This document shows, piece after piece, positions 2,971-24,000 of a stretch of DNA of 24,000 nucleotides (positions are counted from its first letter, which is position 1; each line of letters opens with the position of its first letter). This stretch comes from Candidatus Heimdallarchaeota archaeon (lineage in GTDB: Archaea > Asgardarchaeota > Heimdallarchaeia > JABLTI01): NCBI GenBank assembly GCA_030614005.1, contig JAUWKS010000013.1:38337-62336 (forward strand), written 5' to 3'. Both the position numbers and the translations under genes were made by a program. The notes below the pieces were generated by a model. It made no database searches. It saw only the letters and a program-made list of their open reading frames with translations, and was not told the DNA's origin.

Positions 2971-5091
2971 TTGAGCGACTATATACATACTATCAGCTTC
3001 AAAGTTCTCATAGATTCTGAAGTGGTGGATTTTACGTTTAGAGTTCCACGAGGAACGTTGCTAATCCAAGTATTGGATGAACTTGAAACAACGCTGAAAA
3101 TTCAGCCAAGGGTTATTGCTACAGTAAATCATGATGGAGAAATAGTTATTATCGAAAACCATTATTCCACCGTTGAGTACCTTATGCAAAAACATGGAAC
3201 TGATTTTTATGCTGGCGGATCAAGTATTGTGACATTCAATCATGGAGAATACATTATTGATCTAGAAGTTCCAGAAGCAATTCCATTTGCATCATCCTTT
3301 AGAACAGCCTGTAAAAGCTTCTCGATAATGCCAAGAGATGTCTCTATGGAAAGACAAGATGGTCAAGTGATGGATTATGAAATATTTCGTATGCCCACCG
3401 CTTTTGTGCTAAACTCTTGGGGGAATTTTTATCGAATTGTTGATCGCGAATTAGGTGATCCTTTAATTGATCCACCAAAAGCAGTTGAAGAAGAGTCGCT
3501 CACACATACAGAGCAAACTTCTGAAGAAATAAAATCGGAACAAGATTCAATGGTCTACCCACCGAAATTAGATGGTTCTGAATTAATAGATGCAGCTTCA
3601 GTAGTATCTGAAATAGATACTTTGACTGATCATTTTGTTGAATCCTCCTTATCTGATGACCAAGAAAAACCAACAATTGAATCATTAATGGATGAAATAC
3701 GTATAGATAGTGAAACCGATTTAGACGATGACGAAGAGGAGTTTATGACTCAAGCAATTGACGAACCCTTAGCAGATTCTGTTATTACAGATGTTTCACA
3801 CATAGAGGAGAAGGAGGAGGAACCTGAAGGCGTTCCCCTAAGTGAAGTGATTGATTTTGACGATGAAATAGAAGCTTTAGAGGATGAAACAATTGCTGAT
3901 GAAGAGGAAGAAGATGATTTAGAAATTTTTGCCCAAGATTATGAAGAAGTAACGGATTTTGAAGAAGTTGATACTGAAGAACAAATTTCCGATGAATTTG
4001 TTGATGAGGATGAAGAGGTCATTGACGATCTTCCAATTGAAGAAACTTCTCCATCATTTGAAGAAATGATAACAACTTCTGTAATAGAAGAGAAAGTAGA
4101 ATCAGATGAAGTTGAAGAACCTGAGGAAGAAAAAATAGTTACTCAACCATTTGATGATGAGCAATTTATTGATTCAATCAATGATCATTATGTTGAAAAA
4201 GATACGAGTGATCAAATACCAGTATTCTCTACTGATGAAACAGAAATAACCGAAGATGTTGAGGATGAAGACTTAGACGAAGACCCTCAAGCATTGGATG
4301 ATTTGACGGAAGATATGGTTATCAAATCCGAAGATATTTTCGAATCTGATCTCAAAGAGATAGATGAAGTAACTGAACAACCAGTAGTTGCTCCTATTCA
4401 GGATGATTTGTCTTTAGACCAAAGATTAGAGATTAGAAAACAAGAGCTAGTTACTCTTGAAAAAATCTTAAGTGAAGAAGAGAAATTAAAAGTAAAGATA
4501 CAACAAAGGACAATTACCATCGATTATTATGAGAAAATGAATCCACGAAAAATATATCCAATAGCGGTGAAAATTTCACCTACTACTTCACCTAAACAAA
4601 ATAAATTCACTGACCAACTAAAGATTGTACCGATATTTCCAGGTTGTTATGTAACTCCCCATCAAGAAATTATTGAAATAAATGGTGAAAGTGATATTGA
4701 TACAGAATTCACTGTAACACCTCTAATTAGCAAAGGAATAGTAAATGGAAAACTTGGTATCTGGTATAAAGAAAGAAATATTCTCAATATCAATACTAGA
4801 TCAAAAATAAGGAATTATTCGGGTTGCATTGTTAGTAGCATATTGGCATTTCTATTTGGAATTATGCCTTTTATGTTTTTAATATTCAATTTTAATTTTA
4901 ATGAAGCTTTAGCAACTGGAATAAATAACATTCTTTCAACATCATTGACAACTACTTTGTTAATGATTATTGAAATAATTCTGTTAGTAGTTTTCCTTGG
5001 CCTAATGGTAGGGTTTATTTTCGTAGGGAAACCAGCAAAACGAAAAATAAAACGCAAATTTTATCCTGTTGCACCTCAATCTGATGATTAA
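2971..5091 (+). CDS. Hypothetical membrane-anchored protein: N-terminal globular region, ~300-aa D/E-rich disordered spacer, coiled coil, beta-rich domain, 2 C-terminal TM helices
   Basis: 706-aa ORF with a TTG start preceded by GAGGT (acagaggtagaaaa-TTG). Residues ~170-480 (nt 3478-4410) are dominated by D/E with interspersed I/V/F/L. TM helices are ILAFLFGIMPFMFLIFNF and LLMIIEIILLVVFLGLMVGFIFVG, followed by a basic tail KPAKRKIKRK. I recognise no family. Confidence 0.8.
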   Translation: MSDYIHTISFKVLIDSEVVDFTFRVPRGTLLIQVLDELETTLKIQPRVIATVNHDGEIVIIENHYSTVEYLMQKHGTDFYAGGSSIVTFNHGEYIIDLEVPEAIPFASSFRTACKSFSIMPRDVSMERQDGQVMDYEIFRMPTAFVLNSWGNFYRIVDRELGDPLIDPPKAVEEESLTHTEQTSEEIKSEQDSMVYPPKLDGSELIDAASVVSEIDTLTDHFVESSLSDDQEKPTIESLMDEIRIDSETDLDDDEEEFMTQAIDEPLADSVITDVSHIEEKEEEPEGVPLSEVIDFDDEIEALEDETIADEEEEDDLEIFAQDYEEVTDFEEVDTEEQISDEFVDEDEEVIDDLPIEETSPSFEEMITTSVIEEKVESDEVEEPEEEKIVTQPFDDEQFIDSINDHYVEKDTSDQIPVFSTDETEITEDVEDEDLDEDPQALDDLTEDMVIKSEDIFESDLKEIDEVTEQPVVAPIQDDLSLDQRLEIRKQELVTLEKILSEEEKLKVKIQQRTITIDYYEKMNPRKIYPIAVKISPTTSPKQNKFTDQLKIVPIFPGCYVTPHQEIIEINGESDIDTEFTVTPLISKGIVNGKLGIWYKERNILNINTRSKIRNYSGCIVSSILAFLFGIMPFMFLIFNFNFNEALATGINNILSTSLTTTLLMIIEIILLVVFLGLMVGFIFVGKPAKRKIKRKFYPVAPQSDD

Positions 5092-12790: not shown

Positions 12791-14773
12791 GTGACCACGC
12801 CAGCTAAGGGAGATAAGATAAAAACAAAAACCCCCTACAAGACGCAACCCGATCTTGATAAAATCATTTCAGGTGGTAATTGGTACAAAAAACTCATTGA
12901 AACAATGGATGATGGAATTATTGCTACAGATATGAATAGAATTATTATTTATGTTAACCCTGCTGCTTGTAAAAAATTAGGTTATACTGAAGAAGAATTA
13001 CTTGGAAAAAGCTCTTTAGAAATTGTTGTTGAAGAAGATCGCGCTAGAGTCACTCGAGAATCAGCAATACGCTTTAGTGAAAAAGTCTCTACACAATATG
13101 AAATTACTTTTAAAACAAAAGTTGGCTCAAAATTTCCCGTTCTGATTAGTGGTTCACCAATTTTGGATGAGAATAATCAAACACTTGGCACTTATGCATT
13201 AATTACTGATATCAGAGATAGAAAGGTTGTAGAAAAAGAGTTACGGGATAAGAATAATGAATTACAAAATCTCTATAACAATTTATTGGAGTTATATCAG
13301 CAACTGGGTGCAATAATCGCAGAGACAACTACAGTACCCTCAACTGAAATTTTGCTTTTCACCTCCAAGCATTGTGTGTATTGTGCACCTGCAGAAGAGG
13401 TCCTACAACAGGTACTTGCTTCTTACGCTGGAAAAATCACTTACAGAAAAGTGGATATTGATGAAGAGCCTGAGTTGGCAGCAGAACATGAGATTCTTTC
13501 CCTCCCAACAATTGCAATTGGCGAAGAACAACTAACTTCTGTTCCTGATATCTATAAATTACATTCAGCATTATTCAGTGCATTAGTGCCCGAAGAAAAG
13601 TTCAGAAGAACAAGACAAGAATTAGATAATATTATTGATAATTCACCTGTTGCTATTTTTACTATAAATTCTAAAGGAACGGTTACCAAAAGTAATCCTC
13701 TTGTCGGGATACTGACCGGTGTGGAATTACAAGACATTACAGGTCATGATGCACTAAATCCAGAAAAGAATGGAGAATCACTATTTCCAAAATCACTCAT
13801 TAAGCTTTTTAAGAAAGGCCTAAAAGGTAAGACAATAACTGAAGATCGTTTACGTATCAAAGACTATTCCTCTGAGAAAGATGATCCATTTTCAATTGTT
13901 AGTTTCAAAGTAGTTCCAATGGCTACTAAAGAGGGAGAAATAAACGAAATTCTTGTCTTATGTGAAGATGTCACTAAACTGGCTATGCAAGAAGAAGCAT
14001 TGAGTGAATCCTATACCAAATTAGAAGACCTGAATGACAAGCTTTTACAATTAAATAAAGATAGGTCGAATTTTGTTGAACTTACTTCGACTAAACTTTT
14101 AGAACCATTAAGAAACTCAAGAGAGTTGATAGATACTATTCTTCGTGGGCAATTAGGCATGCTGAGTGAAGAACTATTTGGCACAATGGAATTTCTGAGA
14201 AATAACTTAGAAAAAGTATCAAAAAGTATTTTTGGCATTATAGAATTTTCAAATATAGAAGCACAAGACTTCAGTTTGAAACTTGATGAACATAACCTTA
14301 AGGATCTTATTTCACAAACAACTAGTTTAGTTGGGTCTGTAGGTATACAAAAAAGCTTTATTGGGACAATTGAACTTTCTAATGAAGTCACTGTTTGGTG
14401 TGACTCTGAACAAATTATTCGTGTTTTAAGAAACTTAGTTTTGAATGCTATCCAATTCACTCCTATAAATTGTAACATTCACTTTTCAGCTGAAGATAAG
14501 AATGGTCTTGTTGCTGTTTATTTGAAGGATAACGGTTTTGGTATTGCTAAGAAAGATCTTAAAAGAATATTTGAGCAATATGTAAAAACTGATCCCGAAA
14601 GTTCTGGGTCGGGTTTAGGGTTATCCATGGTAAAAAGTTTAGTGGAAGCTCACGGAGGAACCGTTAGAGCAGAATCGGAAGGCAAAAACAAAGGTTCAAC
14701 GTTTATGTTTACTTTGCCAACCAATAAAGCATCATATGAAAAACTAATCTCTAAGAAAGAGAAATCAAATTAG
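12791..14773 (+). CDS. PAS - thioredoxin-fold (CxxC) - PAS - degenerate HisKA - HATPase_c sensor protein (histidine-kinase-like, H-box His absent)
   Basis: PAS1 runs from YKKLIETMDDGIIATD to ALITDIRDRK. A Trx fold follows: ILLFTSKHCVYCAP...ILSLPTIAIG. PAS2 runs from IIDNSPVAIFTIN to VLCEDVTK. The DHp-like helix SNFVELTSTKLLEPL sits where SHELRTPL is expected. HATPase boxes are intact: N (VLRNLVLNAIQFT), G1 (DNGFGI), F (IFEQY), G2 (GSGLGLSMV). GTG start with GGAG upstream. Confidence 0.85.
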   Translation: MTTPAKGDKIKTKTPYKTQPDLDKIISGGNWYKKLIETMDDGIIATDMNRIIIYVNPAACKKLGYTEEELLGKSSLEIVVEEDRARVTRESAIRFSEKVSTQYEITFKTKVGSKFPVLISGSPILDENNQTLGTYALITDIRDRKVVEKELRDKNNELQNLYNNLLELYQQLGAIIAETTTVPSTEILLFTSKHCVYCAPAEEVLQQVLASYAGKITYRKVDIDEEPELAAEHEILSLPTIAIGEEQLTSVPDIYKLHSALFSALVPEEKFRRTRQELDNIIDNSPVAIFTINSKGTVTKSNPLVGILTGVELQDITGHDALNPEKNGESLFPKSLIKLFKKGLKGKTITEDRLRIKDYSSEKDDPFSIVSFKVVPMATKEGEINEILVLCEDVTKLAMQEEALSESYTKLEDLNDKLLQLNKDRSNFVELTSTKLLEPLRNSRELIDTILRGQLGMLSEELFGTMEFLRNNLEKVSKSIFGIIEFSNIEAQDFSLKLDEHNLKDLISQTTSLVGSVGIQKSFIGTIELSNEVTVWCDSEQIIRVLRNLVLNAIQFTPINCNIHFSAEDKNGLVAVYLKDNGFGIAKKDLKRIFEQYVKTDPESSGSGLGLSMVKSLVEAHGGTVRAESEGKNKGSTFMFTLPTNKASYEKLISKKEKSN

Positions 14774-16054: not shown

Positions 16055-16738
16055 CTATCTCATCCATTGTGCTACTTTGACTCCTTTCCAACGTTTTATC
16101 TCGCCGTTTTTCATACCGATGAAATCAGGAATCATTCTGAGGATAATGAGTATTGTGCACCCCCAACTAAAAACCATTATTGGCCACGTATGCCAATGAG
16201 TTCCATCAAGCAAGGAAAATTGTCCTACTAGATAGAAAATAGTGTATGTTGTCGCAACGGATACTGTTGCCATTATACCTGCTATTCCACTATATCTGAT
16301 AATTATTAACCAAACAAGTAATGAAACCCACCAAACAAGGATACCCCATGGATTGATTACAATCATGACACCAGTTAATACTGCAAATCCTTTGCCTCCT
16401 TGAAATTTCATCCAAGGCATCCAACAATGTCCCGCAAATGCTGCAATACCACACAGAGCAGCTAGTAAATCCAAATTCACTGGTTCTAAAGATGTTAGAG
16501 TACTGAAAAAGATATATCGAGTTAATAATGTGCCAAGAAAGCCTTTTGTAATATCTAAAGACATAGTTAAAATCGCCCAACTATAACCCGCTGTTCGTAC
16601 AGTGTTTCTAGTGCTAACGGAACCTGAACCTTCATTTCGCACATCTTTTCCAGTAACTAATTTAACAATAATCCAAGCAAATGGAATCGAACCGAAAAAG
16701 AACCCAATAATTGGTGCTAAAATATAAGGATAAATCAT
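16055..16738 (-). CDS. plsY: PlsY-family glycerol-3-phosphate acyltransferase (acyl-phosphate dependent), bacterial-type
   Basis: GFFFGSIPFAWIIVKL...GKDVRNEGSGSVSTRNTVR, DITKG and GHCWMPWMKFQGGKGFA align with the three PlsY motifs (GSGNxGATNxxR, DxxKG, GHxxPxxxxFxGGKG). I prefer the ATG at 16738 (AGGAG 9 nt upstream) over the TTG at 16744. Confidence 0.8.
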   Translation of the reverse strand: MIYPYILAPIIGFFFGSIPFAWIIVKLVTGKDVRNEGSGSVSTRNTVRTAGYSWAILTMSLDITKGFLGTLLTRYIFFSTLTSLEPVNLDLLAALCGIAAFAGHCWMPWMKFQGGKGFAVLTGVMIVINPWGILVWWVSLLVWLIIIRYSGIAGIMATVSVATTYTIFYLVGQFSLLDGTHWHTWPIMVFSWGCTILIILRMIPDFIGMKNGEIKRWKGVKVAQWMR

Positions 16739-16916
16739 CTGCAAAATCTCCTGTTATTAGCACTACTATTCTTTATCTTTAAATAGATTTTTCACAGACG
16801 CTATGATATGGTTATTACGGCTAATTCTTTAACAAAATTAATTCTTTGGCAAAAACTAAAAAAGCAGAAGAGCTTAAAGAGGATAACAAACCAAATCAAA
16901 AGAGAGACTGATTATC

Positions 16917-17183: not shown

Positions 17184-17416
17184 GAAAGTATATTTTTGGA
17201 ATAATTTTATTCGTAAGAGAAACTAACAGCCTTTTTTTTCTTTGTTATACCCATAACACAATACTTTTTTGCATACAATTCAAAAATATGCTATCTGATA
17301 ATTTGTTGCTAATAGTTAAATTGCTCGTAATTTTGTAAATTAGGTTCATTTACACAAATGAATAAGCAGAATAATCAAATTATTAACTATTGAAATCCTG
17401 TTTGGAGAGAAAAAAC

Positions 17417-19066
17417 ATGCCAGAAGTAGGTCTAGGAGAATTCGATGATCAAGAAGTATTAAAGAAATCGCTTGTGGCATTCGAAAAAACCAAAAAAGAG
17501 ATTCAAGATCATATTCTTGAAAGAACCGCAGTTGTTCCTGATGTAACTTTAACTGAAATAGAAAAAGAATTCAATATTTCCACAGAACTCGCGAAAGCAA
17601 TTTTTGTGTTAGAATTTGAGTATTATATTCCGAGGAAACTTTCAGCAAATTGTTACCTCTCTGAAATGAAGAGACTTACAGAAGCTCAATATGAATTGCC
17701 GGATATTTACTCTTTTAGAGTAAGGTATTCAATGGAAGAAGGTTTTTGGATTAAATATCTAGTAGTGGATCTTCCAAAAAAACTTGAACATAAAATGGGT
17801 AAACTGAAAAAAATCTATTGTTCTCTATTTGGCGACCTCGCCGCGGATAAAGAAGACGCAGCCGTATATATTATCGAAAGAGCTTTTATCTGTAGTGAGG
17901 TAATAAGACCAATTATCCATTCTTGGATGAAAGAGCATCATCGAGCAAAGTATTCTGATTGTGTGAAAACATTTTTGTGTAGCATCCAACGAAAAGCAAG
18001 AGAAAAGTGTTTACCATTAGTGGAAGAAATTGGCAATAGATTTCATTCACAGATGGATTCACTAAGAAGTATCATTACCGAAATTCGACCAAAAGGGTGG
18101 ATAATGAATGCAAAAGAAGAATATAATAAACTTTCAGAGAAACTAATACTATTTGAAAAGGAAGACTACCTTGATTGGCGATTAGCTGCAGAAATTATTT
18201 TAGAAACAATGTTGTTGAGAGATTTTGATGATCAAGATAAAGAAGAAACAGATTTTGTAGTTAAAGAAATGCCAAAACAAAAAGAAAATATTGTAACTCA
18301 AATGATAACAACAAAAAAGGAAAAATACCTCACAGATGATATTTCAGTAATTCTTACAAAAATAGTTGATTTATCTGAAGAGAACCAGAAACCGCTAATA
18401 GAAGAGATGATACAAGAAAATTATGATCATGCAACAGTCAAAAACCGAGTAAAACCAGCTATTTTCTCAAAGATTTTTCTTGAAAGGATTATGACTGAAC
18501 TGATGATTGGAAATAAAGAAATAGTCAAAATAACAAAGAAATTTGATGTACAACTTATGTTTCGCTTATCTCCTGCTGGAGGAAAAGAATTTCCACATTT
18601 AGGAATAGATGACAAAATAACTGGATTGCTTGAAGAATTTGTTATGGATATTCTACAAAAACAAAATGAGCTAAAAATGATTTCTACAGAAGAAACTATG
18701 AGGGAGAAAGCTGAGCAATCTATTGAAGAGAGCGAAAAACACTCAGAAGAAGTAGACTCGACAAAGAAAAGTCAAGTGGTTGGGAAAATAAAGGAATCGA
18801 GTGAAAAGGAATTATGGTTATTTGTAAGAGATGAATACTTGAAAGAATTATTCGATAGTGAGAAAGAATTAGTTGCAGGAGCAAGAATTCTGAAGAAATA
18901 TTCACTTGAACTGGGATTATTAATGACTGAGGGAGAAGCAACGTCATATCTAACCTCTGAACTCGATAAGAAGGGCTTTTCTATTGAAAGCTCAAGCAGA
19001 GAAGATATTGATTCAAATGTGTGCAAAATCGTTTTCAAACAGTTGAAAGAATTGAGGAAATACTAA
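17417..19066 (+). CDS. Hypothetical protein, 549 aa, K/E-rich and predicted mostly alpha-helical; no family recognised
   Basis: Long ORF with protein-like composition. ATG at 17417 is preceded by GGAGAG 9 nt upstream; the track TTG at 17390 is less likely. Possible winged-helix-like segments occur near both termini (VTLTEIEKEFNISTELAKAIFVL; ARILKKYSLELGLLMTEGEATSYL), but I cannot support a call. Confidence 0.75.
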   Translation: MPEVGLGEFDDQEVLKKSLVAFEKTKKEIQDHILERTAVVPDVTLTEIEKEFNISTELAKAIFVLEFEYYIPRKLSANCYLSEMKRLTEAQYELPDIYSFRVRYSMEEGFWIKYLVVDLPKKLEHKMGKLKKIYCSLFGDLAADKEDAAVYIIERAFICSEVIRPIIHSWMKEHHRAKYSDCVKTFLCSIQRKAREKCLPLVEEIGNRFHSQMDSLRSIITEIRPKGWIMNAKEEYNKLSEKLILFEKEDYLDWRLAAEIILETMLLRDFDDQDKEETDFVVKEMPKQKENIVTQMITTKKEKYLTDDISVILTKIVDLSEENQKPLIEEMIQENYDHATVKNRVKPAIFSKIFLERIMTELMIGNKEIVKITKKFDVQLMFRLSPAGGKEFPHLGIDDKITGLLEEFVMDILQKQNELKMISTEETMREKAEQSIEESEKHSEEVDSTKKSQVVGKIKESSEKELWLFVRDEYLKELFDSEKELVAGARILKKYSLELGLLMTEGEATSYLTSELDKKGFSIESSSREDIDSNVCKIVFKQLKELRKY

Positions 19067-19672: not shown

Positions 19673-20911
19673 ATGTCAATGAAAGCAGATTTCATAAAAG
19701 AATTAGAAATTTCTACATTCTCAAAACCAATTCTAAAAGAAATGGGCGTAAAAGCAATCTTCTTAGTCACTTTTGACATTATCCTAGGACCAATAGCCTA
19801 TGTCAATAAACTCTCTACAGAAAAAAGTGAGTATCTCGAATTTTTGCAACAGAATATAGCGCACCTAGGAGAATTTTACACTGGAATATCACATGCACAA
19901 ATCGATAAAGTAACAACAAGAACCGGAGAAGAAATGCTTGTAGGACGAGCAACAAGAAAAGTAAATGAAATGGAACTAATAGATATCGCCGTAGCTTTAG
20001 TGGACTCAACAGAATATCATAATGAAATTGTTAAGATGCTAAAATTCGTTGTGAGAACGTCATATGGCAATCCAAAAAACTTTTGTGATTTATTAGACAG
20101 AGTGTTGCTGGAATATCAAGACCTCGGAAAGAAAAAAGCAGAGGCAGGAAAATTCGCCGTATTCAAAGATGCTTCAAAGGAAAAAGTGGCGAATATAGCA
20201 AAGCTATATCACAATTGGAAAGGAGTACTATTCATAGATTTTGAAGGAGATAACATAAACAGCTCATTTATGCCGGATTGGATTGAAGCGAGTAAAATAA
20301 ATTCGCAGGAATTAGCTCAGAAAACGAGAAATATGTACGCAGAAGGAGTTATCATTCCAAGATCTAAACAAATATTTTCGATGGTAAGCATAAAAGGCAA
20401 ACAAGTAATCGTTGTATCAACAAATAATTCACGCTATGTAACAATCATTTTCCCGACAGCAGATGGAATGACAAAAATATCAACAATAGCAGAAAATATG
20501 GATATTATTAACGAGGCACTGAGCGAAGTGGGAATGCAATTCAGCACAGATGCAATGAAGAATACTCTCGAGATAATCGATAAAAGAATAAGAGAAAATG
20601 ATACCAGCGTCTTAATGAAAGAAGTAATTGTAGTAATGTTAAGATCCGAAGAGTTGATGCCAAAGAAAAAGATAAAACAAGAAGAATTTGAAGCATTTCA
20701 GGGAGAAATACAAAAGAAATATTTTCAAGGATTGAATAAAGCATTCGAAGAATTTGATGGCACAAAAACAATCTTAGAAATAACTCATAGAGTAAATGTT
20801 AGTTTAGAGCAAATGGGTGATTTTGTGGTGTTTTGTATGACAAGGGGAATTGTGCAGGTCTTTACTAAAAATGGCCGAACAAGAAAAACAGATGGAAAAG
20901 TTGTTATCTAA
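19673..20911 (+). CDS. Hypothetical protein with two roadblock/LC7 (longin-like) type domains and a C-terminal winged-helix domain
   Basis: 412 aa. Domain 1 (aa ~5-150): helix, then GVKAIFLVTFDIILGPIAYV hairpin, helix, three strands, helices. Domain 2 (aa ~170-285): KVANIAKLYHNWKGVLFIDFEGDNINSSF...IFSMVSIKGKQVIVVSTNNSRYVTIIFPTADGMTKISTIAENMDIINEAL, the classic roadblock pattern. C-terminus: GTKTILEITHRVNVSLEQMGDFVVFCMTRGIVQVF (wHTH-like). The CDS is solid; the domain calls rest on pattern only. Confidence 0.6.
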   Translation: MSMKADFIKELEISTFSKPILKEMGVKAIFLVTFDIILGPIAYVNKLSTEKSEYLEFLQQNIAHLGEFYTGISHAQIDKVTTRTGEEMLVGRATRKVNEMELIDIAVALVDSTEYHNEIVKMLKFVVRTSYGNPKNFCDLLDRVLLEYQDLGKKKAEAGKFAVFKDASKEKVANIAKLYHNWKGVLFIDFEGDNINSSFMPDWIEASKINSQELAQKTRNMYAEGVIIPRSKQIFSMVSIKGKQVIVVSTNNSRYVTIIFPTADGMTKISTIAENMDIINEALSEVGMQFSTDAMKNTLEIIDKRIRENDTSVLMKEVIVVMLRSEELMPKKKIKQEEFEAFQGEIQKKYFQGLNKAFEEFDGTKTILEITHRVNVSLEQMGDFVVFCMTRGIVQVFTKNGRTRKTDGKVVI

Positions 20912-22028: not shown

Positions 22029-22114
22029 CTACATACCTATCTAAAATAAAGAAAAAAAAAGACAAGTAAGCAAGTGTGTGTGAGAAATTGACAGCGCAAT
22101 ATGTAGTTAAGAAA

Positions 22115-22375
22115 ATGGCAAAGATACATTGTGCGAAGGGACCAAAGAACTGCAAGAAATGTAGAGAATATGCAAAAGAGAAAAGATATGCATTATTGGA
22201 CACCAACCCACAAGAAAATGAAATGGCAGCAAGACCGATGATAGAGTTGGAAGTTGAGGGCGGGGAAAAAGTCTGGGTAACTTTTGATGTGATAGCTTAT
22301 TTTGAGTCAATGGATGAAGTAAAAGAATATACAACAAAAAAAGACATTGAAGTAGAACAAATAATTGAAGAATAG
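22115..22375 (+). CDS. Small hypothetical protein (86 aa from the ATG; 99 aa from the GTG at 22076) with an N-terminal HC-x6-C-x2-C cluster and acidic C-terminus
   Basis: MAKIHCAKGPKNCKKCREYAKEKRYALLD...IELEVEGGEKVWVTFDVIAYFESMDEVKEY. Its composition is protein-like, whereas the antisense ORF 22107-22427 is low-complexity L/F/S-rich. The start is ambiguous. Confidence 0.5.
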   Translation: MAKIHCAKGPKNCKKCREYAKEKRYALLDTNPQENEMAARPMIELEVEGGEKVWVTFDVIAYFESMDEVKEYTTKKDIEVEQIIEE

Positions 22376-22427: not shown

Positions 22428-23489
22428 TCAAAAATTCAAGCCAAAAAAAGATTGCTTTTCAATTTGTTGTTTAAGACTAGGTTTGATTTGTATACAAATA
22501 TCCGTTACTAAAGTCATTAAATCTTCTGGAGTTTGTTTGGTAAATTTCTGGAATTGTTCACTATCAAATTTGCCATTAGAACACATTCCTAACAATTCAA
22601 TACATTTAGTAATAATATTACTCATTTCCTTTTCAAATGATGCTCGAATGTCAATTTCAGTTTTTTGCTTTCGCATTTTTTTTACCAGAGCACGTAAAAT
22701 TTTTGTACCATTTAAACCGGAAGCTGTTCCTTTTTCCAAAGAAATAATTGCTACATCAGCATTTTTGTAATTTATTTCAGAAGCTTGAGGAACACCAATA
22801 ACATTAGCTGTTTGAGGGTCTACATATGAACTTGTATAAGTGATTACGTTTTGAAAGGGAAACGGAGTAAGTAGATTTAGGATAGCTATTGTTTGAGATG
22901 CAGATATTAGATCACTACAAATGATGATTGGTTTGAAAGACAATAAGGCATAAATTACTACATCTAAATTAGATTTAATATGGTCAAAAAGAAAAGTGAT
23001 AGAAACATCGGTAGGGGCATTCATTTTAGCGCGAAAATAAGCTAGATTTTCTTCGGAAAACCTACTCATCTCAGAGAAACGTTGATCATATATTGAAAAA
23101 ACGGCATCAATAATTCCATTTAATATCTGTTCTTGCTTATGTGAGAAGATGAGACCGGTATGAACTTCTTGAATTTCTTGAATCTCAGAAATAATTTTAG
23201 ATACTATTTCAGAGAGAATCTTATCTATTATTTCCTTTTCATAAGCTACATTAATATCCTTGATTATAACAACACCAAAATTCTTACTTATTTTAATATA
23301 GATTTCATGTGTTTGAGTAGCAAAATAGTTCGCTTCACCAACATCCATAGTAGCTAAAAAAGTCTGAATGGCTGTAATAGCTCCTGAGAAAAGAGTAGCT
23401 CGTTCAATAGATTCTTTTCCTTCTGACTTTAATTTTCGGAAATAAAGAGGAAGTCCACTTTGAGAGATAATATATATGGCATCTAACAT
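22428..23489 (-). CDS. Hypothetical protein with N-terminal longin-type domain and central DENN/folliculin-like core
   Basis: 353 aa. The N-terminus LDAIYIISQSGLPLYFRKL...ERATLFSGAITAIQTFLATM...HEIYIKISKNFGVVIIKD has longin beta-beta-alpha-beta-beta-beta order. Residues ~160-260, VVIYALLSFKPIIICSDLISASQTIAILNLLTPFPFQNVITYTSSYVDPQTANVIGVP...ADVAIISLEKG, match the remembered core-DENN consensus. The CDS is solid; the domain call rests on pattern only. Confidence 0.55.
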   Translation of the reverse strand: MLDAIYIISQSGLPLYFRKLKSEGKESIERATLFSGAITAIQTFLATMDVGEANYFATQTHEIYIKISKNFGVVIIKDINVAYEKEIIDKILSEIVSKIISEIQEIQEVHTGLIFSHKQEQILNGIIDAVFSIYDQRFSEMSRFSEENLAYFRAKMNAPTDVSITFLFDHIKSNLDVVIYALLSFKPIIICSDLISASQTIAILNLLTPFPFQNVITYTSSYVDPQTANVIGVPQASEINYKNADVAIISLEKGTASGLNGTKILRALVKKMRKQKTEIDIRASFEKEMSNIITKCIELLGMCSNGKFDSEQFQKFTKQTPEDLMTLVTDICIQIKPSLKQQIEKQSFFGLNF

Positions 23490-23514
23490 TCTAAAAAAAT
23501 AGACTACTATCCCA

Positions 23515-23521
23515 TTTTAAA
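23515..23521 (-). promoter_or_regulatory. TATA box of the longin-DENN-like gene (probably a leaderless or short-leader mRNA)
   Basis: Minus-strand TTTAAAA starts 32 nt upstream of the ATG at 23489. No SD-like sequence lies in between (tgggatagtagtctatttttttaga-ATG). Confidence 0.35.
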
Positions 23522-23617
23522 TGTTCTTTAATATACAAGAAGGGATAATGAACGTAATTTTTGTCAGCAAAAAATACCCTCGGAAATGGTGACTGAATTT
23601 GTATCTAGAAACGAAAA

Positions 23618-23630
23618 GGCTAGAGTAGCC
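23618..23630 (-). terminator. Weak stem-loop + T-tract downstream of the 23689-24000 gene
   Basis: Minus strand: GGCTA-ctc-TAGCC followed by TTTTCGTTTC. The stem is only 5 bp, ~60 nt after the stop. Confidence 0.25.
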
Positions 23631-23688
23631 GCTTAGTAAACTGTGTAAGCATAGTAGGTAGACTAACAAACTAACAGTGATTGGTAAA

Positions 23689-24000
23689 CTATTTAATTAT
23701 CATTTTATAGGTCCTCAAGCTTAATAAAACCATTATTAAAACGAAGACCGCACCAAACACATAAACAATGGGTGTGATAATTTGATTGATAATATCAATC
23801 TCTAATATGACACTAATTATTGCTGCGATATAACCAAGAATAAAGAAAATAATAAAAGAGATAGCTATTTTCCAGTATTTGGTTATACTTGCTCCCTCAG
23901 GGAACATTGCTATGATTTTAAGGATCAGAACAAAAGCAAAAACGAAACTTATTATTCCAATGCCGGCTGAAACAAGAGTGAAAATATCTAGTAAATCCAT
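23689..24000 (-). CDS. Small hypothetical membrane protein (3 TM helices), start at or beyond the window edge
   Basis: The 103-aa ORF begins with an ATG exactly at nt 24000, so the true start may lie outside the window. It has three long hydrophobic helices. Confidence 0.6.
   Translation of the reverse strand: MDLLDIFTLVSAGIGIISFVFAFVLILKIIAMFPEGASITKYWKIAISFIIFFILGYIAAIISVILEIDIINQIITPIVYVFGAVFVLIMVLLSLRTYKMIIK

What the first reader, a model, noticed from the sequence alone, without database searches (positions are those of the whole stretch)
22428..23489. Archaeal protein that reads as longin + DENN/folliculin-like
Residues 1-105 start directly with a beta-hairpin (LDAIYIISQSGLPLYFRKL). 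A helix follows (ERATLFSGAITAIQTFLATM), then three strands (ANYFATQTHEIYIKISKNFGVVIIKD) and a long helix. This is the longin-domain order seen in Mon1/Ccz1, AP-sigma and folliculin-type proteins. Residues ~160-260 (nt 22710-23012) read ITFLFDHIKSNLDVVIYALLSFKPIIICSDLISASQTIAILNLLTPFPFQNVITYTSSYVDPQTANVIGVPQ...ADVAIISLEKG. They track my remembered core-DENN consensus element by element. A helix is followed by a buried hydrophobic strand ending in S-x-D/S. Next comes a helix ending LL-x-P-F-x-aromatic-Q, then a Y/P-rich loop, then hydrophobic-hydrophobic-G-V/L, and later D-hhhh-D/S-L-d-x-G. The YTSSY...NVIGV stretch also resembles the folliculin C-terminal (DENN) region. Longin+DENN is the architecture of DENN Rab-GEFs and of the FLCN/FNIP, C9orf72/SMCR8 and Nprl2/Nprl3-type GTPase regulators, generally treated as a eukaryotic invention. 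As far as I know, a compact prokaryotic version is not a described family.
Basis: partly seen in the sequence, partly recalled or inferred. Interest (0 to 1): 0.85.

Follow-up and report, generated by a model that had tools for sequence, protein, structure and literature searches.

The report
Heimdall archaeal longin–DENN (folliculin-like) protein
This is a real gene of a Heimdall-group Asgard archaeon whose protein has the two-domain longin + DENN build of eukaryotic folliculin/SMCR8-type GTPase regulators, but such archaeal proteins were already reported in 2020-21, so it is a new member of a known kind.

Summary
Window 22428-23489 (minus strand) is a 353-aa gene with homologues in Heimdallarchaeota/Asgard metagenomes.

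Direct Pfam, NCBIfam and PDB sequence searches give nothing significant. An AlphaFold2 model built on an 87-sequence family alignment is very confident (pLDDT 93.7). Its best Foldseek matches are human folliculin (three entries), DENND10 and a C9orf72/SMCR8 chain. The isolated folliculin C-terminal DENN crystal structure also matches. The N-domain alone matches longin/roadblock proteins.

Sequence evidence agrees:
- Homologues carry precomputed Pfam SMCR8_C hits.
- The C-domain profile aligns to the folliculin DENN core (hhalign P = 2e-4; 0 of 200 shuffles reach it).
- The same profile aligns to the SMCR8 DENN core.

The architectural reading is therefore right. The novelty claim is not: Liu et al. 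(2020/21) described Asgard DENN proteins, including Heimdall proteins with folliculin's domain order.

Two things seen here are not mentioned in the papers I read:
- This protein lacks the "GP" motif and any conserved arginine typical of GAP-type longins. FLCN-like paralogues with the same DENN domain have the GP motif.
- A 103-aa three-segment membrane protein gene sits directly upstream in five divergent lineages.

Most likely it is a non-catalytic-arginine partner or GEF-like platform for a small GTPase, working at the membrane.

The parts
22428..23489 (-). Complete gene for the 353-aa longin + DENN-like protein (stop codon at 22428-22430)
   Evidence: ORF list. Identical and 68-75% identical proteins in public data. 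88 relatives in the exhaustive search. AF2 pLDDT 93.7.
23160..23489 (-). N-terminal longin domain, residues ~1-110. It is the non-GP type, with S-G-L-P in the beta1-beta2 hairpin and a conserved LFSG..AIQ helix.
   Evidence: Topology beta-beta-alpha-beta-beta-beta-alpha. Foldseek matches to TRAPP Bet5, MglB, Fuzzy, Mon1/Ccz1 and AP sigma. Fuz_longin_1 at E=0.24 on the protein, and in 12/46 stand-alone homologues with best E 6e-5. No GP motif and no conserved Arg.
23010..23159 (-). Helical linker, residues ~111-160 (H117-142, H146-157)
   Evidence: AF2 secondary structure.
22665..23009 (-). DENN-core-like alpha/beta domain, residues ~161-275. It contains the strand PIIIC-SD, the helix ending LLTPFPF and the NVIGV strand.
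   Evidence: Foldseek hit to the FLCN C-terminal crystal structure 3v42_A (E 5.5e-4, TM 0.57 on target, 179 columns) and to full-length FLCN, DENND10 and 7mge_B. hhalign of the C-domain profile vs FLCN 365-423 gives P=2.1e-4, with 0/200 shuffles reaching it. hmmsearch aligns the profile to the SMCR8 DENN region 723-756 at E=0.075. Precomputed SMCR8_C hits on homologues.
22431..22664 (-). C-terminal four-helix bundle, residues ~276-353. It is d-DENN-like, with a nearly invariant P337.
   Evidence: AF2 helices 278-303, 310-319, 322-335 and 338-350. Conserved P337 in the family. Covered by the FLCN C-terminal match.
23689..24000 (-). Upstream gene for a 103-aa protein with three hydrophobic segments. 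It forms a conserved gene pair with the longin-DENN gene.
   Evidence: ORF with three hydrophobic segments. Homologues of 41-76% identity lie directly upstream of family genes in L001, L002, L004, L003, L005, L006 and L009, while the other neighbours differ. No Pfam family.
23490..23688 (-). Intergenic spacer between the two genes. It has an AT-rich TTTAAAA element (23515-23521), 26-32 nt upstream of the ATG, which may be an archaeal TATA box.
   Evidence: Sequence read directly. This is inference only, because such motifs are common in a 31% G+C genome.

Best explanation
SHOWN: the gene encodes a soluble two-domain protein of a Heimdall-group Asgard archaeon. It has an N-terminal longin domain, a helical linker and a C-terminal DENN module (alpha/beta core plus helical d-DENN-like bundle). 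The DENN module is homologous to the DENN domains of folliculin and SMCR8. The same DENN module occurs in Asgard paralogues fused to at least three kinds of longin domain. This protein carries the kind that lacks the GP motif and any conserved arginine. That longin kind also exists as a large family of stand-alone ~147-aa proteins.

INFERRED: like all characterised longin-DENN proteins, it regulates a small GTPase (Rab-, Arf- or Rag-like, all abundant in Asgard archaea). It would offer a dimeric longin platform, with the DENN domain contributing binding or dimerisation. Because it lacks the GAP signature, it is more likely a GEF-like platform or the non-catalytic partner (FNIP/DENND-like) than the arginine-finger GAP subunit. 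The partner could be itself or a GP-motif FLCN-like paralogue.

INFERRED: the conserved adjacent 103-aa membrane protein docks or is controlled by it, placing the activity at the cell membrane. This would be analogous to membrane recruitment of the FLCN and C9orf72 complexes in eukaryotes.
For: Fold:
- The AF2 model has pLDDT 93.7 and pTM 0.84 and was made without templates.
- Foldseek top hits are folliculin 6ulg_L (E 8e-7), 8dhb_J and 6nzd_H. These chains were identified as folliculin.
- Further hits are DENND10 8p0v_M (7e-6), 7mge_B and FLCN-CT 3v42_A.

Sequence:
- Precomputed SMCR8_C (PF27109) hits on P0003 (75% identical), P0016, P0008, P0013 and P0023.
- Folliculin_C, C9orf72-like and Folliculin weak hits in family members.
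- hhalign to the FLCN DENN core gives P=2.1e-4 and score 32, against shuffles of 12.0+/-2.1 with maximum 20.8.
- SMCR8 is the best natural PDB hit of the C-domain profile.

Longin type:
- Searches support the longin assignment.
- The hairpin reads S-G-L-P where paralogues have G-P-x-P, and no position is >=25% Arg in residues 1-110.
- The GP motif is reported as specific to GAP longins (PMC12290439).

Membrane link:
- A homologous 3-segment membrane gene lies directly upstream in five divergent lineages, in otherwise unrelated neighbourhoods.

GTPase link:
- A Ras/Roc-type GTPase gene abuts the same-class relative P0038.
- Liu et al. report a conserved Asgard roadblock + Rab-like GTPase + DENN operon.
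Against: - The protein itself has no significant hit to Pfam DENN, Folliculin_C or longin models or to PDB sequences.
- No GTPase, roadblock or second DENN gene lies near the gene in the window or in L002.
- The membrane-protein pairing is absent in 6 of 11 lineages examined.
- No biochemical data exist for any Asgard DENN protein, so GEF versus GAP versus scaffold is undetermined.
- The family-conserved G of the 'GD' motif is Ser in this protein.
Confidence: 0.7

Rival explanations
1. It is itself the catalytic GAP subunit, a direct functional equivalent of folliculin or SMCR8. It would supply an arginine finger from its longin domain to a Rag/Arf-like GTPase.
For: Folliculin is the top structural match. 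The DENN domain is most similar in sequence to SMCR8 and FLCN.
Against: The beta1-beta2 hairpin has S-G-L-P, not the GP motif found in FLCN, NPRL2, SMCR8 and C9orf72 and in the Asgard paralogues P0010 and P0012-P0016. No arginine is conserved anywhere in the longin domain of this class. The N-domain's profile affinities are to Fuz/Mon1, sybindin and roadblock families.
Confidence: 0.1
2. It is a GTPase-independent adaptor or scaffold. It would be a longin-DENN protein used only for protein-protein or membrane-protein interactions, as DENND10 is within the Commander assembly, for example as a chaperone or regulator of the adjacent small membrane protein.
For: DENND10, a compact 357-residue chain, is among the best matches. 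The gene pair with a membrane protein is conserved, whereas GTPase genes are usually not adjacent.
Against: Most characterised longin-DENN and longin/roadblock dimers act on small GTPases (PMC10933270; PMC12290439). One same-class relative is next to a Ras/Roc GTPase gene. Asgard GTPase genes are generally not in operons with their regulators, so absence of adjacency is weak evidence.
Confidence: 0.17
3. The C-terminal domain only resembles DENN by convergence or by a generic alpha/beta sandwich, and the protein belongs to an unrelated archaeal family.
For: There are no significant direct Pfam hits. Sequence identities to eukaryotic proteins are 10-16%. hhalign probability is only 12-46%.
Against: Three independent sequence signals all map to the same core strand-helix-loop: SMCR8_C Pfam hits on homologues, the SMCR8 hmmsearch hit and the FLCN hhalign. 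They are in register with the structural match. The whole two-domain order (longin, linker, DENN core, helical tail) is shared. No other fold appears among the 50 hits listed, all with E <= 7.6e-4.
Confidence: 0.03

Closest known systems
Asgard archaeal DENN-domain proteins, including Heimdall proteins with FLCN domain organisation (Liu et al. 2020 bioRxiv / 2021 Nature)
   Same: Same lineage (Heimdall/Asgard) and same longin + DENN architecture. The DENN module is shared at E 1e-24 to 1e-33 with GP-motif FLCN-like paralogues.
   Different: This protein's longin is a different type: GxP..LFSG..AIQ, with no GP motif and no conserved Arg. It is not in the reported roadblock + Rab-like GTPase + DENN operon. 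Instead it is paired with a small membrane-protein gene. I could not verify whether this exact subfamily is among their asCOGs, because the supplement is not held.
Folliculin (FLCN) / FNIP and SMCR8 / C9orf72 longin-DENN GAP complexes
   Same: Same two-domain order and best structural matches. The DENN core motif is conserved: ours VIYALLSFKPIIICSD...LLTPFPF...YTSSY...NVIGV, SMCR8 AIYSLLSGRTLVVLGED...IFVP, FLCN ...VIWKSRD...MLPVG..IIPYSSQY..NFLGL.
   Different: It is much smaller (353 aa, with no long disordered inserts). [quoted passage not shown] The heterodimer partner and client GTPase are unknown.
DENND10 (FAM45A) and classical DENN Rab GEFs (DENND1-type)
   Same: Compact longin (u-DENN) + DENN + d-DENN protein of about the same length (a 357-residue chain in 8p0v_M). 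It is the third-best Foldseek hit. It lacks the GP motif, as the DENND family does.
   Different: No Pfam DENN/uDENN/dDENN profile hit at E<=10. Sequence affinity is to SMCR8/FLCN-type DENN domains instead.
Longin domains of Fuzzy/Mon1/HPS1 (tri-longin Rab GEFs) and TRAPP Bet5/sybindin; roadblock MglB
   Same: The N-domain fold and topology match. There are weak Fuz_longin_1, Sybindin and Robl_LC7 profile hits in this N-domain family.
   Different: Those proteins have no DENN domain. Hits are below Pfam gathering thresholds for this protein. Roadblock starts with a helix, whereas this domain starts with a beta-hairpin.

Membership tests
DENN superfamily (FLCN_C / SMCR8_C-type DENN module) | Alpha/beta core with a central sheet flanked by helices, followed by an all-helical d-DENN region | tested here: met
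   The AF2 model (pLDDT 93.7) has strands 188-191, 230-233, 247-250 and 255-257 with flanking helices, then helices 278-350. Foldseek matches FLCN-CT 3v42_A (E 5.5e-4, target TM 0.57) and full-length FLCN, DENND10 and 7mge_B.
DENN superfamily (FLCN_C / SMCR8_C-type DENN module) | Preceded by a longin (u-DENN) domain in the same polypeptide | tested here: met
   Residues 1-110 have longin topology. They match longin/roadblock structures.
DENN superfamily (FLCN_C / SMCR8_C-type DENN module) | Significant match to a curated DENN-type sequence profile (Pfam DENN, Folliculin_C, SMCR8_C) | tested here: inconclusive
   The protein itself has no hit at E<=10 to DENN or Folliculin_C, and the precomputed entry for its identical copy is '-'. 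The local Pfam lacks PF27109.

Homologues do hit. SMCR8_C hits P0003 and P0016 (unmarked) and P0008, P0013 and P0023 (weak). Folliculin_C reaches best E 0.0015 in 2/44 members. The family profile vs FLCN gives hhalign P=2.1e-4 with 0/200 shuffles reaching it. SMCR8 scores E=0.075 in PDB.
FLCN/SMCR8/NPRL2-type GAP longin | GP motif in the beta1-beta2 loop or at the start of beta2 | tested here: not met
   The query has S11-G12-L13-P14. Paralogues P0010, P0012-P0016 and P0030 have G-P-x-P. The motif definition is from PMC12290439.
FLCN/SMCR8/NPRL2-type GAP longin | Conserved catalytic arginine finger in the longin domain | tested here: not met
   No column of residues 1-110 reaches 25% Arg across the family alignment.
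Longin domain | Order beta-beta-alpha-beta-beta-beta-alpha(-alpha), with no N-terminal helix | tested here: met
   E2-9, E14-19, H28-47, E55-57, E61-67, E71-78, H85-102, H104-108.
Longin domain | Match to a curated longin profile above the gathering threshold | tested here: not met
   Fuz_longin_1 scores E=0.24 and 12.1 bits against a cut-off of 26.1. 12/46 stand-alone homologues hit at E<=0.01, best 6e-5.
Roadblock/LC7 | N-terminal helix preceding the first hairpin (alpha-beta-beta-alpha-beta-beta-beta) | tested here: not met
   The chain starts with a strand at residue 2. MglB and Robl_LC7 similarities reflect the shared superfamily core.
Rab/Arf/Rag GEF or GAP (functional class) | Binds a small GTPase and changes its nucleotide state | not testable with these tools
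   Context only. A Ras/Roc GTPase gene is adjacent to relative P0038, and Liu et al. report an operon. No GTPase gene is in the window.
Asgard roadblock + Rab-like GTPase + DENN operon (Liu et al.) | DENN gene adjacent to a LAMTOR1-like roadblock gene and a Rab-like GTPase gene | tested here: not met
   Neighbours in the window, L002 and L004 are a small membrane protein, a 99-aa ORF, a 272-aa membrane protein and a 412-aa unknown protein. None has a Ras, Arf or Robl hit.

The most novel reading that the evidence does not exclude
The longin-DENN gene and the conserved 103-aa three-segment membrane-protein gene may form an ancient two-component module. In it, a membrane protein tethers or signals to a GTPase regulator. 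This would be a prokaryotic counterpart of PQLC2-C9orf72/SMCR8, SLC38A9-FLCN/FNIP or Ragulator anchoring. The non-GP class (this protein) and the GP-motif FLCN-like class would heterodimerise like FNIP-FLCN. If so, the asymmetric catalytic/non-catalytic longin-DENN pair and its membrane recruitment predate eukaryotes.
Probability: 0.15. Interest if true: 0.75.

Novelty: new member of a known kind. Interest (0 to 1): 0.4.

Why it matters
Longin-DENN proteins control Rab, Arf and Rag GTPases at eukaryotic endomembranes and lysosomes. Their presence in Heimdall-group archaea bears on how membrane-trafficking and nutrient-signalling machinery arose before eukaryotes. That general point is already published.

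This locus adds three things:
- A well-supported example that standard annotation leaves as 'hypothetical protein'.
- Evidence that one archaeal DENN module is combined with GAP-type (GP motif) and non-GAP-type longins, the division of labour seen in FLCN/FNIP.
- A conserved small membrane-protein neighbour, which gives a concrete, testable hypothesis for where and with what the protein acts.

Tried and rejected
- Direct hmmscan of the protein against Pfam and NCBIfam at E<=10 gave only noise-level hits (Fuz_longin_1 at 0.24).
- phmmer against PDB found nothing.
- The word-indexed homologue search found only 3 relatives.
- The first AF2 run on that 3-sequence alignment was poor (pLDDT 51) and was not used.
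- The full-length family profile vs PDB gave only weak hits (SMCR8 E=0.62).
- I tested whether the neighbouring 412-aa ORF (19673-20911), which contains 'LGPIAYV', is a GP-type longin/DENN partner. BLASTP and hhalign found no similarity to the DENN or longin families and it has no Pfam hit, so I rejected this on present evidence. Its only lead is a weak Get3-like match.
- A metagenome scan with the membrane protein found nothing.
- Broad alignments were too divergent for pattern scans.
- A narrower scan returned only short contigs that were uninformative for synteny.
- Small membrane proteins next to P0016, P0018, P0013 and P0038 are not detectably homologous to the 103-aa protein, so they were not counted as the conserved pair.
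- The supplement of Liu et al. is not held, so the asCOG assignment could not be checked.
- A P-loop/NTPase reading of 'PIIICSD' was considered and dropped, because no nucleotide-binding fold appears among the structural hits listed.
Full report
**1. The observation**

The window carries an ATG-to-stop ORF of 353 codons at 22428-23489, on the minus strand. The finding did not state the strand, and the plus-strand translation is full of stops.

The window has 31-37% G+C. Other window genes include a PAC2-family gene, an Alg9-like GT22 glycosyltransferase, a beta-CASP/RMMBL nuclease, ThiF, hydantoinase A/B and a PAS histidine kinase. The closest species-representative genome encoding a homologue (72% identity) is the MAG 'Candidatus Heimdallarchaeota archaeon HM7_B34'. 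All named relatives of the C-domain family are Heimdallarchaeota or 'Asgard group'. The gene is real: identical and 68-75% identical proteins exist in independent assemblies.

**2. Direct annotation fails**

- hmmscan against Pfam and NCBIfam at E<=10 gives only Fuz_longin_1 (E=0.24, residues 5-65) and noise.
- phmmer against PDB sequences gives nothing.

**3. The family**

An exhaustive HMMER search with a three-sequence profile found 88 proteins at E<=1e-3. They fall into two groups:
- About 45 stand-alone ~147-aa proteins that match only residues 1-140.
- About 40 proteins of ~335-370 aa (a few longer) that match the C-terminal 200 residues.

The C-terminal module is fused to at least three N-terminal types:
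- Class A (this protein): G-x-P in the first hairpin, then an LFSG..AIQ helix.
- Class B: F-x-x-F-D-x-x-x-G-P-x-P.
- Class C: CIFFRSYD...LLGGFLSAI.

**4. Structure**

AlphaFold2 on the three-sequence alignment was poor (pLDDT 51). On the 87-sequence family alignment, without templates, it gave pLDDT 93.7 and pTM 0.84.
- The N-domain is beta-beta-alpha-beta-beta-beta-alpha starting at residue 2. That is longin order, not roadblock order.
- After two linker helices comes an alpha/beta unit: strands 188-191, 230-233, 247-250 and 255-257, with helices 164-184, 194-207, 235-241 and 263-273.
- It ends in a four-helix bundle (278-350).

Foldseek against the PDB ranks first 6ulg_L (E 8e-7), then 8dhb_J, 8p0v_M, 6nzd_H, later 7mge_B, and 3v42_A (E 5.5e-4; TM 0.57 normalised on the 196-residue target; 179 columns).
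- I confirmed that 6ulg_L, 6nzd_H/8dhb and 3v42_A are folliculin. I searched the PDB with the human FLCN sequence recalled from memory, which proved 578/579 identical to 6ulg_L.
- 8p0v is the Commander entry that includes DENND10, and the matched chain has 357 residues.
- The remaining listed hits, all with E <= 7.6e-4, are single longin/roadblock domains covering the N-domain: TRAPP Bet5/Trs23, MglB, Fuzzy, Mon1/Ccz1, AP and COPI small subunits, LAMTOR, and dynein LC7.

**5. Sequence-level corroboration**

- Precomputed Pfam annotations attached to homologues show PF27109, named SMCR8_C. It hits P0003 (75% identical to our C-half), P0016, and more weakly P0008, P0013 and P0023. The local Pfam copy lacks this model.
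- Scanning 44 family members against the local Pfam gave sub-threshold Folliculin_C (2 members, best 0.0015), C9orf72-like (2) and Folliculin (1, 1.3e-4) hits.
- A C-domain-only profile (32 sequences) finds SMCR8 as its best natural PDB hit (E=0.075). Profile positions 21-53 align with SMCR8 723-756, 'AIYSLLSGRTLVVLGEDEAIVRKLVTALAIFVPS'.
- hhalign aligns query residues 180-236 with the FLCN C-terminal domain at FLCN 365-423, with P=2.1e-4 and score 32.0. 200 shuffles of the FLCN domain gave 12.0+/-2.1 with a maximum of 20.8, and the reversed sequence gave 13.4.

I consider homology of the C-terminal module with FLCN/SMCR8-type DENN domains established beyond reasonable doubt.

**6. The N-domain**

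In the stand-alone relatives, Fuz_longin_1 (12/46, best 6e-5), Robl_LC7 (9/46), Sybindin (5/46) and Intu_longin_1 (2/46) appear.

The Traffic 2025 paper (PMC12290439) reports a GP motif at the beta1-beta2 junction, next to the arginine finger. It finds this motif only in GAP-type longins (FLCN, NPRL2, SMCR8, C9orf72) and a class of Heimdall longins. It is absent from FNIP2, NPRL3, DENND, TRAPP and adaptin longins.
- Class B paralogues have G-P-x-P, and most have an Arg in the beta4-beta5 loop.
- Our protein has S-G-L-P, and its class has no column with >=25% Arg in residues 1-110.
- It therefore fails the two defining features of a GAP-type longin.

**7. Genomic context**

There is no GTPase, roadblock or second DENN gene in the window or in 10 kb either side of the HM7_B34 homologue. 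The operon described by Liu et al. (LAMTOR1-like roadblock + Rab-like GTPase + DENN) is therefore not present here.

Instead, the gene directly upstream (23689-24000, same strand) encodes a 103-aa protein with three hydrophobic segments and no Pfam family. tblastn finds homologues (41-76% identity) directly upstream of family genes in several places:
- The close relatives L001, L002 and L004.
- P0008 (42% identical to ours; divergent orientation).
- P0009 (36%; divergent).
- The class B proteins P0010 and P0012 (23%; co-directional, with gaps of 97 and 20 nt).

The rest of each neighbourhood is unrelated. The homologue is absent next to P0013, P0014, P0016, P0018, P0023 and P0038. Several of those have other small membrane-protein genes adjacent, which I did not count.

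That makes five of eleven lineages sharing only this pair, which suggests functional coupling. One class A relative (P0038) is followed by a convergent 196-aa Ras/Roc-type GTPase gene. Tran et al. note that Asgard GTPase genes are generally not in operons with longin or roadblock genes (PMC10933270), so the lack of an adjacent GTPase is weak evidence.

**8. Mechanism**

*Shown:* the protein is a soluble longin-linker-DENN protein homologous to the FLCN/SMCR8 DENN lineage, with a non-GP longin.

*Inferred from established knowledge of these families:* longin/roadblock domains dimerise into platforms that bind small GTPases, and DENN modules add GTPase contacts or dimerisation. The most likely role is regulation of a Rab-, Arf- or Rag-like GTPase.
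- Because the GAP signature is missing, I favour a GEF-like platform or a non-catalytic partner (FNIP/DENND-like), possibly of a class B paralogue.
- I give about 0.1 to it being the arginine-finger GAP.
- I give about 0.17 to a GTPase-independent scaffold role.

The membrane-protein neighbour suggests recruitment to, or control of, the cell membrane. Eukaryotic parallels are PQLC2 recruiting C9orf72-SMCR8-WDR41 and the SLC38A9 tail acting on FLCN-FNIP2 (abstracts listed).

**9. Novelty**

The claim that no prokaryotic longin+DENN family is described is wrong.
- Liu et al. reported DENN-domain proteins across Asgard archaea.
[quoted passage not shown] - The 2025 Traffic paper analysed Heimdall FLCN/SMCR8-type longins.

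This protein is an unannotated member of that known set. Two points are not mentioned in the passages I read of the papers retrieved here: the split of one DENN module between GP and non-GP longins, and the conserved small membrane-protein partner. Both are computational leads only.

**10. Verdict**

The structural interpretation is correct, and the novelty is overstated. I classify it as a new member of a known kind, with interest 0.4.

Noticed in passing
window 19673-20911 (+): This 412-aa ORF has no Pfam hit but is highly conserved (44-91% identity) in Heimdall-, Gerd- and Thor-labelled Asgard MAGs. A family profile gives a weak PDB hit to the helical region of the Get3 tail-anchor-targeting ATPase (E=4e-4). 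It contains 'FDIILGPIAYV' but shows no detectable relation to the DENN or longin families. It stays near the longin-DENN gene in the three close relatives.
   Followed up: partly
window 23689-24000 (-); also L003 5667-5981, L009 4595-4903, L006 7421-7733, L005 3-239: This family of ~103-aa proteins has three hydrophobic segments, a conserved FP-x-x-A-x-I-x-(K/R)-Y-W loop and a (R/K)-T-Y-x-x-I-x-K tail, and no Pfam family. It is more conserved (41-59% identity across lineages) than the adjacent DENN proteins (23-42%).
   Followed up: partly
L002 7240-8730 (-): A complete archaeal 16S rRNA gene (Rfam RF01959, 1391 bits) lies about 1.3 kb from the membrane-protein/longin-DENN pair in the Heimdallarchaeota MAG HM7_B34. 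It could be used to place the lineage.
   Followed up: no
window 16055-16744 (-): A PlsY-type glycerol-3-phosphate acyltransferase (Pfam G3P_acyltransf, E 2e-36), which is a bacterial-type ester-lipid gene, occurs in an archaeal genome. It is conserved in the relatives L002 and L004.
   Followed up: no
window 12791-14773 (+): A 660-aa sensor kinase combines PAS domains, a thioredoxin/glutaredoxin-like segment (residues ~187-245) and HATPase_c. This is an unusual redox-looking insertion.
   Followed up: no
window 2971-5091 (+) and 17390-19066 (+): Two large ORFs (706 aa and 558 aa) have no Pfam family at E<=0.001/0.01. The 558-aa one is syntenic in L002 and L004.
   Followed up: no
L021 2453-3043 (-) and 5057-5686 (+): Next to the class A longin-DENN relative P0038 lies a 196-aa Ras/Roc-type small GTPase gene (convergent, 54 nt away). 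About 2 kb further there is a weak ICMT/PEMT-like (isoprenylcysteine methyltransferase family) membrane protein gene.
   Followed up: partly
window 22076-22375 (+): A 99-aa ORF lies convergent with the longin-DENN gene and is conserved in L001 and L002. It has a Cys-rich N-terminus (C..C...C..C), no significant family hit, and may be a small zinc-binding protein.
   Followed up: no
proteins P0052 (763 aa), P0039/P0061 (~500 aa), P0075-type (~243 aa): The same DENN-like module occurs in other architectures. It is duplicated in tandem in P0052, follows two longin-like regions in P0039 and P0061, and follows a short Cys-containing N-terminus in a large ~243-aa Heimdall subfamily.
   Followed up: no
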